From Escherichia coli O127:H6 str. E2348/69 (GTDB taxonomy: Bacteria > Pseudomonadota > Gammaproteobacteria > Enterobacterales > Enterobacteriaceae): DNA of 64,000 nucleotides. The notes beneath the pieces are model-generated. The model had not been told where the DNA came from. It saw only the letters and a list, made by a program, of their open reading frames with translations, and ran no database searches. Within the stretch, counting starts at the first letter, position 1. Each line of letters opens with the position of its first letter. Positions 15,150-19,396 of the stretch are shown piece by piece. The stretch lies in the NCBI RefSeq assembly GCF_000026545.1, contig NC_011601.1. One strand, written 5' to 3'. The position numbers were made by a program, and so were the translations under genes.

Positions 15150-15394
15150 ATAGAGCGAGGACGCTAACAGGAACAATGACTCAGGATGAGGGTCAGGAGC
15201 GCCAGGAGGCGAAGACAGAGGATTGTCAGGAAGATAAACGTCCGGAGACGTAATTAAATGGAAATGGAATCAACACGGATTGTTCCGGCTAATGGAAAAA
15301 CAGGGTGTGTTGGCGGCCTGCAAGGATTGTAAGACCCGTTAAGGGTTATGAGTCAGGAAAAAAGGCGACAGAGTAATCTGTCGCCTTTTTTCTT
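15150..15394 (+). ncRNA. csrC: CsrC small RNA (CsrA-sequestering)
   Basis: About 245 nt containing many GGA motifs (CAGGATGAGGGTCAGGAGCGCCAGGAGGCGAAGACAGAGGATTGTCAGGAAG...) and ending in the terminator AAAAAAGGCGACAGAGTAATCTGTCGCCTTTTTTC; between engB and yihI as in E. coli. Ends are approximate. Confidence 0.75.
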
Positions 15395-16158: not shown

Positions 16159-17532
16159 ATGTCTGTACAGCAAATCGACTGGGATCTGGCCCTGATCCAG
16201 AAATATAACTATTCCGGGCCACGATACACCTCGTACCCGACCGCGCTGGAGTTTTCAGAAGACTTCGGCGAACAGGCGTTTTTACAAGCCGTGGCGCGCT
16301 ATCCTGAGCGTCCATTATCTCTCTACGTACATATTCCGTTCTGCCATAAGCTTTGTTACTTCTGCGGTTGCAATAAGATTGTTACTCGCCAGCAGCACAA
16401 GGCCGATCAGTATCTGGACGCGCTGGAGCAAGAAATCGTCCATCGTGCACCGCTGTTCGCCGGGCGTCACGTCAGCCAATTGCACTGGGGCGGCGGAACG
16501 CCGACGTATCTGAATAAAGCGCAAATCAGCCGTCTGATGAAGCTGCTGCGCGAAAACTTCCAGTTCAATGCCGATGCGGAGATCTCGATCGAAGTCGATC
16601 CGCGGGAAATCGAACTGGATGTACTCGATCATTTACGCGCCGAAGGCTTTAATCGGCTGAGCATGGGCGTGCAGGACTTCAACAAAGAAGTGCAACGTCT
16701 GGTTAACCGCGAGCAGGATGAAGAGTTCATCTTTGCACTGCTTAACCATGCGCGTGAGATTGGCTTTACCTCCACCAACATCGACCTGATTTACGGCCTG
16801 CCGAAACAGACGCCGGAGAGTTTCGCCTTTACCCTGAAACGCGTGGCGGAGCTGAACCCCGATCGTCTGAGCGTCTTTAACTACGCGCATTTGCCGACCA
16901 TTTTTGCTGCTCAGCGCAAAATCAAAGACGCTGAACTGCCGAGTCCGCAGCAAAAACTCGATATCCTGCAGGAAACCATCGCCTTCCTGACACAATCGGG
17001 CTATCAGTTTATCGGTATGGATCACTTTGCCCGTCCGGATGACGAGCTGGCGGTGGCCCAGCGTGAAGGCGTGCTGCATCGTAACTTCCAGGGCTACACC
17101 ACTCAGGGCGATACCGATCTGCTGGGGATGGGCGTTTCCGCCATCAGCATGATTGGCGACTGCTACGCGCAGAACCAGAAAGAGTTGAAGCAGTACTATC
17201 AGCAAGTGGATGAACAAGGCAATGCGCTGTGGCGTGGTATTGCGCTAACGCGTGATGACTGTATTCGCCGCGATGTGATTAAGTCGCTCATCTGCAACTT
17301 CCGTCTGGATTACGCCCCTATTGAGCAACAGTGGGATTTGCTCTTCGCTGATTACTTTGCGGAAGATCTCAAGTTGCTCGCCCCGTTAGCAAAAGATGGG
17401 CTGGTGGATGTGGATGAGAAGGGAATACAGGTGACGGCGAAAGGTCGCTTGCTGATCCGCAACATTTGCATGTGCTTTGATACCTATCTGCGCCAGAAAG
17501 CGCGGATGCAGCAGTTCTCTCGGGTGATTTAA
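16159..17532 (+). CDS. hemN: Oxygen-independent coproporphyrinogen III oxidase (radical SAM)
   Basis: Radical-SAM CxxxCxxC motif (CHKLCYFCGC) and HemN-like length; ATG at 16159 (the track ORF starts 2 codons upstream at GTG). Confidence 0.93.
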   Translation: MSVQQIDWDLALIQKYNYSGPRYTSYPTALEFSEDFGEQAFLQAVARYPERPLSLYVHIPFCHKLCYFCGCNKIVTRQQHKADQYLDALEQEIVHRAPLFAGRHVSQLHWGGGTPTYLNKAQISRLMKLLRENFQFNADAEISIEVDPREIELDVLDHLRAEGFNRLSMGVQDFNKEVQRLVNREQDEEFIFALLNHAREIGFTSTNIDLIYGLPKQTPESFAFTLKRVAELNPDRLSVFNYAHLPTIFAAQRKIKDAELPSPQQKLDILQETIAFLTQSGYQFIGMDHFARPDDELAVAQREGVLHRNFQGYTTQGDTDLLGMGVSAISMIGDCYAQNQKELKQYYQQVDEQGNALWRGIALTRDDCIRRDVIKSLICNFRLDYAPIEQQWDLLFADYFAEDLKLLAPLAKDGLVDVDEKGIQVTAKGRLLIRNICMCFDTYLRQKARMQQFSRVI

Positions 17533-17589
17533 ATTGTGAATGGCGCTTCGTTTACAAAGTAGAAAACGAAAGCGCCATCAATGTGCTGA

Positions 17590-17760
<171 letters not shown>

Positions 17761-17764
17761 AGCT

Positions 17765-17875
17765 TCAGCTAAACAGCCCTATCATCGCGGCACACAGCAC
17801 GGCAGCAACAGCAGTTTGCGGTGTGTGGCTGTCAACTGCGCCACTCGATACCAGATTAATTATTGATTCCAGCAT
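17765..17875 (-). CDS. yshB: Small hydrophobic protein YshB (36 aa)
   Basis: Minus-strand ORF translating to MLESIINLVSSGAVDSHTPQTAVAAVLCAAMIGLFS; below the 60-aa cutoff of the ORF track; position between hemN and glnG matches the annotated E. coli small protein as I recall it. Confidence 0.55.
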   Translation of the reverse strand: MLESIINLVSSGAVDSHTPQTAVAAVLCAAMIGLFS

Positions 17876-17986
17876 AATGACTCTCCCCGTTTTCCGGGCA
17901 AGATCATACTGAACTTATAGGAACAGTAAAGCGCAAAATACCAGCAATTTGCGCTCAATAATCAATCTTTACACACAAGCCGTGAA

Positions 17987-19396
17987 TCACTCCATCCCCA
18001 GCTCTTTTAACTTACGCGTCAGGGTGTTGCGGCCCCAGCCAAGTAGCCGCGCCGCTTCCTGTTTATGCCCCTGCGTATGTCGCAGCGCGGTGGTCAGTAA
18101 CGTCCGTTCCAGCTCTGGCTGTGCTTCGGAAAGCAGGTTTTGATGACCGGAACGCAGCGCTCTGTCTGCCCACTGTGCTAACAGCGTTGCCCAACTGTCC
18201 GGCTGCATGTGCGAAGGGCTTTCTGCTACGGTGGATTCAAACAGTTCGCCAGGCAAATCCTGAATCAACACTTCCTGTCCGGCAGCCATTACCGTTAGCC
18301 AGCGGCAGGTGTTTTCCAGCTGGCGCACGTTGCCTGGCCACGTCAGACGCGTCAGCGCGGCTTCGGTTTCCGGATGCAGCAACTTCGCTTCTACGCCCAG
18401 CTCTCGCGCGGCAACCTGTAAAAAATGGCGCGCCAGACGGGGAATATCTTCCCGACGTTCGCGCAGCGGCGGCAGATGAACGCGGATGACGTTCAGGCGG
18501 TGGAACAGATCCTCACGGAACTTGCCTTCCTGCACCCGCTGTTCAAGATTCTGGTGAGTGGCAGCGATAATCCGCACATCTACTTTCACCGGCGCATAGC
18601 CGCCAACGCGATAAAACTGACCGTCTGCCAGCACGCGCAGCAAACGCGTCTGCACATCTAGCGGCATATCGCCAATTTCATCGAGAAATAATGTACCGCC
18701 ATCAGCCTGTTCAAAACGCCCCTGACGAATGGTATTCGCGCCGGTAAATGCGCCTTTCTCGTGACCAAACAGTTCGGATTCGATCAAATCCTTCGGGATA
18801 GCCGCCATATTGAGCGCGATAAACGGCGCTTTGGCTCGCGGACTGTGGCGATGCAGGGCATGAGCGACCAGTTCTTTACCGGTGCCGGACTCGCCGTTAA
18901 TCAGCACGCTAATAGAAGAACGCGAAAGCCGACCGATAATCCGGAACACGTCCTGCATGGCTGGCGCCTCACCGATGATATCGGTCGTTGGGCCGTTAAG
19001 CTGAACATTACGCGGCTGCTGCTGTTCCTGGTAATGACTGATGGCGCGCTCAACCAGCGCCACGGCTTCGTCGATATCAAACGGTTTGGGCAGATAATCA
19101 AATGCCCCTTGTTGATAGGCGCTGACGGCAGCATCCAGATCGGAATGTGCGGTCATAATGATGACCGGAAGCATCGGATGGCGCTGTTTAATCTGCTTGA
19201 GCAGCGCCAGCCCGTCCATTCCCGGCATACGGATATCTGAAAGCAGCACATCCGGCGTTTTGCTCGCCAGCGCCTCCAGTACTTCCGCGCCGTTCTCAAA
19301 TGTCGTACAGGTTAAACCCGCTCCAGCGAGCGCACGTTCAAGCACCCAACGGATGGAACTATCGTCATCGACTACCCAGACTATCCCTCGTTGCAT
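17987..19396 (-). CDS. glnG: Nitrogen regulation response regulator NtrC (sigma-54 activator)
   Basis: 469-aa product from the ATG at 19396 ([12 protein letters not shown]...): receiver domain, AAA+ sigma-54 interaction domain with GAFTGA motif (EKGAFTGA), C-terminal HTH. Confidence 0.95.

What the first reader, a model, noticed from the sequence alone, without database searches (positions are those of the whole stretch)
17765..17875. Small ORF (36 aa) missed by the ORF track between hemN and glnG
The minus strand encodes MLESIINLVSSGAVDSHTPQTAVAAVLCAAMIGLFS, which I recognise as the small membrane protein YshB; the overlapping plus-strand 70-aa track ORF (17700..17912) is probably spurious. 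A reminder that sub-60-aa genes are invisible in the supplied track.
Basis: partly seen in the sequence, partly recalled or inferred. Interest (0 to 1): 0.15.

Follow-up and report, generated by a model that had tools for sequence, protein, structure and literature searches.

The report
Known small membrane protein gene yshB
The 36-codon reading frame is yshB, a well-annotated and experimentally detected small membrane protein gene of E. coli, and the longer frame on the opposite strand is a by-product of it, so the finding is correct but ordinary.

Summary
Window 17765..17875 (-) encodes MLESIINLVSSGAVDSHTPQTAVAAVLCAAMIGLFS. This is identical to UniProt YSHB_ECOLI, and RefSeq annotates it as yshB at exactly this position in E. 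coli E2348/69, the strain the window matches at 100% identity.

- **Family match:** it scores 72.1 bits against NCBIfam NF033841, whose cut-off is 34.
- **Distribution:** it is a single-copy gene in 5425 of 5426 complete E. coli genomes.
- **Synteny:** it sits about 100-112 nt downstream of glnG in six enterobacterial lineages.
- **Expression signals:** a sigma-70-like promoter (TTTACT-16-TATGAT), a GGAG ribosome-binding site and the ATG are conserved across those lineages.
- **Coding signature:** synonymous divergence from Salmonella equals that of its neighbours, and pN/pS is 0.08.
- **Published work:** papers report detection of the protein by top-down mass spectrometry, cleavage by the RseP intramembrane protease, and a virulence role in Salmonella.

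The 70-aa plus-strand ORF (17700..17912) is a shadow ORF. Its ATG lies inside a REP palindrome. It matches no family and is absent from a 15-billion-protein collection. Its frame is interrupted by a stop or lacks an equivalent start in every other lineage.

The molecular mechanism of YshB is still unknown. I infer, without testing it, that YshB uses a transmembrane helix to modulate a larger membrane protein. Already known; low interest.

The parts
17765..17875 (-). yshB coding sequence: 36 codons plus a TGA stop
   Evidence: Translation. RefSeq CDS WP_000893994.1 at the same coordinates. NF033841 at 72.1 bits. Identical to YSHB_ECOLI. pN/pS is 0.079 against Salmonella, and variable columns by codon position are 18/7/31.
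17883..17886 (-). Shine-Dalgarno core GGAG, 7 nt upstream of the ATG, inside the run GGGGAGAG (17881..17888)
   Evidence: Read from the sequence. The G-rich block is conserved in all 7 aligned loci.
17903..17930 (-). Sigma-70-like promoter: -35 TTTACT (17930..17925), 16-nt spacer, -10 TATGAT (17908..17903). The inferred transcription start is near 17896.
   Evidence: This is the only promoter-like site in 17450..18100. TTTAC and TATnAT are among the few conserved blocks of the glnG-yshB spacer in 7 loci. PMC9731577 states that Salmonella yshB has its own promoter. The start position is an inference, not a measurement.
17929..17956 (-). Possible glnG terminator hairpin (GAGCGCAAA / UUUGCGCUU) that abuts the yshB -35 hexamer
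   Evidence: Fold at -13 kcal/mol, no better than shuffled sequence (z = -0.51). Conserved in E. coli, Salmonella and L009, but not in the most distant loci. Tentative.
17596..17758 (.). Cluster of REP palindromes (BIME) in the yshB 3' region, between the yshB stop and the hemN stop
   Evidence: Inverted repeats I1-I8. Rfam naRNA4 (a REP-derived family) scores 77 bits at 17657..17728. The 601-nt query has a median of 29 matching places per E. coli genome. The minus strand folds at -54.4 kcal/mol, z = -4.8. Absent in Salmonella, where the spacer is 89 nt rather than 232 nt.
17700..17912 (+). 70-aa shadow ORF antisense to yshB; not a gene
   Evidence: No family hit. Exact sequence not in the protein collection. 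Not annotated. The ATG lies within the REP palindrome GCCTGATGCGACGC. The frame is stopped or lacks a start codon in the other lineages.

Best explanation
**What it is.** This is yshB, a known core gene of E. coli and related Enterobacteriaceae. It is transcribed from its own sigma-70-type promoter just downstream of glnG and translated from a canonical GGAG/ATG start into a 36-residue hydrophobic protein.

**Shape of the protein.** It consists of a short N-terminal amphipathic helix (about residues 2-14), an invariant H-T-P-Q-T hinge, and a C-terminal transmembrane helix (about residues 19-34) that carries an invariant cysteine.

**Most likely mechanism (inferred, not shown).** Like MgrB, MgtS or AcrZ, YshB probably sits in the inner membrane and changes the activity or stability of a larger membrane protein through helix-helix contact. 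Its level would be set by growth phase or stress and by degradation through the site-2 protease RseP.

**The opposite strand.** The 70-aa ORF is a shadow ORF. It stays open because its wobble positions coincide with those of yshB, and a start codon supplied by a REP element extends it.

**Confidence.** The figure given refers to the identity of the gene. The partner-modulation mechanism stands at roughly 0.4.
For: **Identity**
- The translation is exact.
- The window matches E. coli E2348/69 at 100%, with yshB annotated at the same coordinates.
- NF033841 scores 72.1 bits against a cut-off of 34.
- The sequence is identical to YSHB_ECOLI.
- It is single-copy in 5425 of 5426 E. coli genomes at 95% identity or more, and always annotated yshB in the rows shown.

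**Conservation**
- Orthologues lie directly after glnLG in six lineages, with a spacer of 100-112 nt.
- The promoter hexamers, SD and ATG are conserved.
- E. coli against Salmonella gives 15.5 synonymous and 3.5 non-synonymous differences (binomial P = 2e-7).
- pS is 0.55, against 0.61 for glnG and 0.60 for hemN. pN/pS is 0.079, against 0.039 and 0.074.
- Variable columns by codon position are 18/7/31.

**Protein anatomy**
- GRAVY is 1.12, and the C-terminal 16 residues have a mean hydropathy of 2.2.
- The N-terminal 14 residues are amphipathic.
- AlphaFold gives helices at 2-14 and 19-34, with pLDDT 70.
- The invariant residues are M1, E3, H17, Q20, T21, A22, C28, A29 and F35.

**Literature**
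- YshB was detected by top-down mass spectrometry (PMC12529367).
- It was cleaved by RseP in all four assays, including with purified enzyme (PMC10470546).
- It is estimated at more than 11,000 copies per stationary-phase cell (PMC7549839, PMC10502375).
[quoted passage not shown] 2019, which I could not read).
Against: **Identity:** nothing here contradicts it.

**Mechanism:**
- No partner protein is known.
- The hydrophobic C-terminal segment is short (about 16 residues) and runs to the very C-terminus.
- The protein has no lysine or arginine, so the usual positive-inside rule gives no topology.
- His-tagged YshB could not be detected after plasmid expression in one study (PMC7549839).
- The RseP experiments used N-terminally tagged fusions, not the native protein.
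- The AlphaFold model is of only moderate confidence.
Confidence: 0.97

Rival explanations
1. The plus-strand 70-aa ORF (17700..17912) is the real gene, or a second real gene, and the 36-aa frame is its shadow.
For: It is the longer ORF. Between E. coli and Salmonella its frame also shows a low pN/pS (0.138), because its wobble positions coincide with those of yshB.
Against: It has no family match, its exact sequence is not in the 15-billion-protein collection, and it is not annotated. Its ATG lies inside a REP palindrome that Salmonella lacks. Salmonella retains only a 26-aa GTG ORF. L004, L005 and L006 have no start codon in the open stretch, and stops interrupt the frame within the yshB body in L004, L005, L006, L008 and L009. 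In its frame, codon position 2 would vary more than position 1 (18 against 7 columns), which is the reverse of a coding pattern.
Confidence: 0.01
2. The locus acts mainly as a regulatory RNA, either non-coding or dual-function, and the peptide is incidental.
For: The transcript is short, has its own promoter, and lies in an intergenic region. From my own memory, the Salmonella gene was found during a small-RNA study (Bomjan et al. 2019, not readable here).
Against: No Rfam family other than the REP-derived naRNA4 hits the region, and that hit lies outside the ORF. Synonymous divergence (pS 0.55) is as high as in glnG and hemN (0.61 and 0.60), so there is no extra constraint at the RNA level. 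What is conserved is the amino-acid sequence. The protein itself has been detected (PMC12529367).
Confidence: 0.04
3. YshB is a type I toxin-like membrane-damaging peptide, in the manner of Hok, Ibs or Ldr.
For: It is small and hydrophobic. Like HokB and HokE, it is a class I RseP substrate (PMC10470546).
Against: It is a single-copy core gene with fixed synteny in 5425 of 5426 genomes, whereas toxin loci are usually multi-copy or variable. No antisense or adjacent sRNA family was detected. It has no positively charged residues. It is reported to be very abundant in stationary phase without any reported toxicity (PMC7549839).
Confidence: 0.03
4. It is a chance ORF that was propagated by annotation.
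For: ORFs of this size are common by chance: 76 ORFs of at least 20 aa overlap this 5-kb stretch.
Against: The ORF is conserved across genera with the same length and the same start and stop, although synonymous sites are close to saturation. The SD and promoter are conserved. Mass-spectrometric detection has been reported (PMC12529367).
Confidence: 0.005

Closest known systems
YshB of E. coli K-12 (UniProt YSHB_ECOLI; NCBIfam NF033841; Pfam PF28018)
   Same: The 36-residue sequence is identical. It has the same position between glnG and hemN, and its HMM score is twice the cut-off.
   Different: Nothing differs. It is the same gene in strain E2348/69.
YshB of Salmonella enterica (Bomjan et al. 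2019, J Bacteriol 201:e00314-19)
   Same: It is the orthologue: 33 of 36 residues are identical (V23L, M31L, I32V), with the same glnL-glnG-yshB-hemN-yihI synteny and the same promoter and SD blocks.
   Different: Salmonella lacks the REP cluster downstream of the gene (89-nt spacer rather than 232 nt). The reported virulence and intracellular-replication role has not been tested in E. coli E2348/69.
Regulatory small inner-membrane proteins: MgrB (PhoQ), MgtS (MgtA/PitA), AcrZ (AcrB)
   Same: They are under 50 aa, have a single predicted transmembrane helix, are expressed in response to stress or growth phase, and are encoded by stand-alone genes. MgrB is also cleaved by RseP in some assays (PMC10470546).
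   Different: There is no sequence similarity, and no partner is known for YshB. YshB has no basic residues and has an unusual invariant HTPQT hinge. The resemblance is one of kind, not of family.

Membership tests
YshB family small membrane protein (NCBIfam NF033841, equivalog) | Score at or above the curated cut-off of the family HMM over its full length | tested here: met
   72.1 bits against a cut-off of 34, E = 2.4e-20, residues 1-36 on profile positions 1-40 of 40.
YshB family small membrane protein (NCBIfam NF033841, equivalog) | Identity or near-identity to the reference protein YSHB_ECOLI | tested here: met
   The exact sequence is in a cluster that UniRef names YSHB_ECOLI. RefSeq WP_000893994.1 is annotated at the same coordinates.
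YshB family small membrane protein (NCBIfam NF033841, equivalog) | Length of 36-37 aa with the conserved H-T-P-Q-T-A hinge and a conserved cysteine in the C-terminal hydrophobic helix | tested here: met
   Invariant residues are M1, E3, H17, Q20, T21, A22, C28, A29 and F35 across 10 sequences; T18 and P19 are at least 90% conserved.
YshB family small membrane protein (NCBIfam NF033841, equivalog) | Location immediately downstream of glnLG, on the same strand | tested here: met
   Window and loci L002-L009. The spacer is 100-112 nt.
YshB family small membrane protein (NCBIfam NF033841, equivalog) | The ORF is translated into a protein | not testable with these tools
   Literature only: top-down mass-spectrometric detection (PMC12529367) and a copy-number estimate cited in PMC7549839. 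The computed coding signature is consistent with translation.
YshB family small membrane protein (NCBIfam NF033841, equivalog) | Insertion in the inner membrane | not testable with these tools
   Consistent with the hydropathy profile, with the helix-hinge-helix model at pLDDT 70, and with cleavage of tagged YshB by the intramembrane protease RseP (PMC10470546).
Type I toxin small hydrophobic peptides (Hok/Ldr/Ibs type) | A cognate antisense or adjacent sRNA antitoxin | tested here: not met
   At E <= 1, no Rfam family covers yshB or its 5' region. The only hit is the REP-derived naRNA4, downstream of the ORF. An undescribed antisense RNA cannot be excluded.
Type I toxin small hydrophobic peptides (Hok/Ldr/Ibs type) | Multi-copy or strain-variable distribution | tested here: not met
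   Exactly one place per genome in 5425 of 5426 E. coli genomes.
Regulatory small membrane proteins that bind a larger membrane protein (MgrB/MgtS/AcrZ kind; functional class, not a sequence family) | A single transmembrane helix in a protein under 50 aa | tested here: met
   36 aa, one strongly hydrophobic C-terminal segment, and a predicted helix at residues 19-34.
Regulatory small membrane proteins that bind a larger membrane protein (MgrB/MgtS/AcrZ kind; functional class, not a sequence family) | An identified partner whose activity or stability changes on binding | not testable with these tools
   None of the papers that mention yshB in the searchable library reports a partner.

The most novel reading that the evidence does not exclude
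Several features of YshB are unusual. Its position about 100-112 nt after glnG is fixed, and is kept even where the hemN side of the locus has been rearranged (L006/L007). It has no basic residues at all. It has an invariant HTPQT hinge and an invariant Cys28. Together these could mean that YshB is not a generic tail-anchored peptide but a helical-hairpin or re-entrant regulator, with a specific and still unknown membrane partner linked to nitrogen or stationary-phase physiology. Its abundance would be gated by RseP proteolysis. Nothing here tests this. One paper reports that yshB is not induced by nitrogen limitation.
Probability: 0.08. Interest if true: 0.35.

Novelty: already known. Interest (0 to 1): 0.05.

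Why it matters
It matters only as a quality-control point. ORF tracks with a 60-aa floor hide real small-protein genes and can display their antisense shadow ORFs in their place.

There is also a methodological caution. The shadow frame shares wobble positions with the true gene, so it inherits an apparently low dN/dS (0.14 against 0.08 between E. coli and Salmonella). Strand assignment therefore needs other evidence: stop-codon interruptions in more distant relatives, the order of variability across codon positions, and the expression signals.

The biology of YshB itself remains open, in particular its partner, its topology and its role outside Salmonella. This window adds nothing new to those questions.

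Tried and rejected
I used the representative search, the exact-cluster look-up and the encoding-contig look-ups instead.
- **The local Pfam-A copy** gave no hit, although the precomputed annotations list PF28018:YshB. This is probably a difference between Pfam versions.
- **A profile search of the PDB** found nothing, so I ran no fold search on a 36-residue model.
- **Primary papers** could not be read because they are not held: Hemm 2008, Hemm 2010, Fontaine 2011, Storz 2014 and Bomjan 2019. What I say about them comes from papers that cite them or from memory, and is marked as such.
- **The consensus terminator scan** found no intrinsic terminator for yshB or glnG. The candidate glnG hairpin is no more stable than shuffled sequence.
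- **dN/dS between E. coli and Salmonella** did not discriminate between the two strands, so I rejected it as the deciding test.
- **A scan of genome contigs or metagenome contigs** was not run. Its cost is not justified for an already annotated gene, so the taxa of loci L004-L009 remain unnamed. Their GlnG proteins are 92.5-94.7% identical to that of E. coli (L008 was not measured because its glnG is fragmented).

Full report
**Observation.** The mechanical ORF list also shows the plus-strand 70-aa ORF at 17700..17912. A 36-codon ORF is not remarkable in itself, since 76 ORFs of at least 20 aa overlap the 5 kb around it. The case for a gene therefore has to rest on other evidence.

**Identity.** A 601-nt stretch around the ORF matches the chromosome of E. 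coli E2348/69 (EPEC O127:H6) at 100% identity. RefSeq annotates three genes there:
- hemN at window 16159..17532 (+);
- yshB, 'YshB family small membrane protein' (WP_000893994.1), at 17765..17875 (-);
- glnG at 17987..19396 (-), followed by glnL.

The peptide scores 72.1 bits against the NCBIfam equivalog model NF033841 (small_YshB), whose cut-off is 34. Its exact sequence sits in a cluster that UniRef names YSHB_ECOLI. The gene with its promoter (171 nt) is present exactly once in 5425 of 5426 complete E. coli genomes, always at 95% identity or more. It is annotated yshB in every row sampled across the ranking.

**Conservation beyond E. coli.** A search of 1.84 billion representative proteins found only 15 hits with E <= 0.001. 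All are variants of the same short protein, so the family is narrow.

Contigs that encode the Salmonella protein and four more divergent representatives all place the gene directly after glnL-glnG on the same strand. In most of them hemN and yihI follow convergently. In L006/L007 a solute-binding-protein gene replaces hemN, yet the glnG linkage is kept. The spacer from the glnG stop to the yshB ATG is 100-112 nt in every lineage measured. GlnG in these loci is 92.5-95.7% identical to the E. coli protein, so they are all fairly close Enterobacteriaceae. I could not name the organisms.

**Expression signals.**
- The only sigma-70-like site in 17450..18100 is TTTACT-16 nt-TATGAT on the minus strand, at 17930..17903.
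- The core GGAG lies 7 nt upstream of the ATG.
- In an alignment of the 130 nt upstream of the gene from seven loci, the conserved blocks after the end of glnG are TTTAC (-35), TATnAT (-10), the G-rich Shine-Dalgarno sequence and the ATG. The sequence between them is divergent.
- A hairpin between glnG and the -35 hexamer (17956..17929) could be the glnG terminator, but it is no more stable than shuffled sequence.
- No canonical intrinsic terminator was found for yshB.
- The yshB 3' region consists of a cluster of REP palindromes at 17596..17758, followed by a strong hairpin at 17539..17579 next to the hemN stop.

**Coding signature and choice of strand.** Between E. coli and Salmonella, yshB has 15.5 synonymous and 3.5 non-synonymous differences. 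Under neutrality the binomial probability of that split is 2e-7.

| Gene | pS | pN/pS |
|---|---|---|
| yshB | 0.55 | 0.079 |
| glnG | 0.61 | 0.039 |
| hemN | 0.60 | 0.074 |

yshB therefore evolves like an ordinary protein-coding gene, with no extra constraint on synonymous sites. That argues against an overlapping RNA function.

One caveat applies. The antisense frame of the 70-aa ORF shares its third codon positions with yshB, so it also shows a low pN/pS (0.138) in the same comparison. This test alone does not pick the strand. Four other observations do:
- **Interrupted frame.** The antisense frame carries a stop within the yshB body in L004, L005, L006, L008 and L009. Salmonella retains only a 26-aa GTG ORF. 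L004-L006 have no start codon at all in the open stretch.
- **Order of variable columns.** By codon position the counts are 18/7/31 in the yshB frame, the expected order for a coding sequence. In the antisense frame they would be 7/18/31, which is the wrong order.
- **Start codon in a REP element.** The ATG at 17700 lies inside the REP palindrome GCCTGATGCGACGC, part of a cluster that Salmonella lacks.
- **No independent support.** The 70-aa product matches no NCBIfam or Pfam family, its exact sequence is absent from a collection of 15 billion predicted proteins, and it is not annotated in RefSeq.

The plus-strand ORF is a shadow ORF.

**The protein.**
- YshB is strongly hydrophobic (GRAVY 1.12). 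The last 16 residues have a mean hydropathy of 2.2, and the first 14 form an amphipathic stretch.
- It contains no lysine or arginine. Its only ionisable residues are E3, D15 and H17.
- Across ten family members the invariant residues are M1, E3, H17, Q20, T21, A22, C28, A29 and F35. T18 and P19 are nearly invariant, which makes a fixed HTPQTA hinge between the two halves.
- AlphaFold2 with this small alignment gives helix 2-14, a break, and helix 19-34, at moderate confidence (pLDDT 70).
- No solved structure is related by sequence.

**What is known experimentally, from papers I could read.**
- YshB was detected by top-down proteomics. It has no tryptic sites, which explains why bottom-up methods miss it (PMC12529367).
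- It is cited as predicted to reach more than 11,000 copies per stationary-phase cell (PMC7549839 and PMC10502375, citing Li et al. 2014).
- Tagged YshB is a class I substrate of the site-2 intramembrane protease RseP. It was cleaved in all four assays, including by chromosomally encoded RseP and by the purified enzyme. Unidentified proteases also cleave it on the periplasmic side (PMC10470546).
- The Salmonella orthologue is reported to promote intracellular replication and virulence (Bomjan et al. 2019, as cited in PMC10470546 and PMC9731577). I could not read the paper itself.
- C-terminally His-tagged YshB was not detectable after plasmid expression in one study (PMC7549839).

**Mechanism.**
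- *Shown here:* the gene is real and conserved, it has its own conserved expression signals, and it encodes a hydrophobic helix-hinge-helix peptide.
- *Shown in the literature:* the protein exists and RseP can cleave it within the membrane.
- *Inferred:* by analogy with MgrB, MgtS and AcrZ, YshB most likely binds a larger inner-membrane protein through its transmembrane helix and alters that protein's activity or stability. RseP would limit its abundance. I put this at about 0.4.
- *Alternatives:* a toxin-like action on the membrane is disfavoured by the single-copy core distribution, the lack of a detectable antitoxin RNA and the reported high abundance. An RNA-level function is disfavoured by the unconstrained synonymous sites.

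**Verdict.** The feature is an already known and already annotated gene. The window adds nothing new to its biology beyond a clear example of a shadow ORF seeded by a REP element. Interest is low.

Noticed in passing
window 17596-17758: A cluster of about four REP palindromes (BIME) fills the yshB-hemN spacer. It scores above the gathering threshold for Rfam naRNA4 (RF02564: 77 bits on +, 51.9 on -). The 601-nt query around it has a median of 29 matching places per E. coli genome. Salmonella lacks the cluster, with an 89-nt spacer rather than 232 nt. The naRNA4 hit is probably generic REP similarity rather than a specific sRNA gene.
   Followed up: partly
window 17539-17579: A strong hairpin lies immediately after the hemN stop codon (-20.5 kcal/mol, z = -4.6 on the minus strand; -19.7 kcal/mol, z = -2.7 on the plus strand). 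Neither strand has a U-tract after it. It may be a terminator or RNA-stabilising structure shared by the convergent hemN and yshB transcripts.
   Followed up: partly
window 17765-17875 (protein level): YshB has no lysine or arginine, so the positive-inside rule gives no topology. The invariant residues include the H17-T-P-Q-T21 hinge and Cys28.
   Followed up: partly
window 17765-17875, both strands: The antisense frame whose wobble positions coincide with those of yshB inherits an apparently low pN/pS (0.138 against 0.079 for the sense frame, E. coli against Salmonella). Pairwise dN/dS therefore cannot by itself decide which strand of a small gene is coding.
   Followed up: yes
L006/L007 2501-2614 and flanks: In this more divergent lineage (37-aa YshB, 58% identical) hemN is not downstream. 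An SBP_bac_5 solute-binding-protein gene lies there instead, while the glnL-glnG-yshB linkage and spacing are kept.
   Followed up: no
window 17876-17986; loci L002-L009: The spacer from the glnG stop to the yshB ATG is nearly constant (100-112 nt) across six lineages, although most of its sequence is divergent. In E. coli and Salmonella a possible glnG terminator hairpin abuts the yshB -35 hexamer.
   Followed up: partly
P0011 (Salmonella, 43 aa); L008 2501-2656: Stop-loss variants of YshB occur. A Salmonella serovar Uzaramo form carries a 7-residue C-terminal extension. A metagenome contig gives a 51-aa form, but glnG is also fragmented on that contig, which suggests assembly errors.
   Followed up: no
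window about 15176-15342 (+): RefSeq annotates a frameshifted pseudogene with an internal stop ('hypothetical protein') upstream of yihI.
   Followed up: no
window 16153, 19456, 15398: The mechanical ORF list over-extends three neighbours relative to RefSeq. hemN starts at GTG 16153 rather than 16159, glnG at TTG 19456 rather than ATG 19396, and yihI at TTG 15398 rather than 15461.
   Followed up: no
(database note): The precomputed annotations list a Pfam family PF28018:YshB, but the local Pfam-A library returned no hit for the peptide even at E <= 1. This is probably a difference between Pfam versions.
   Followed up: no
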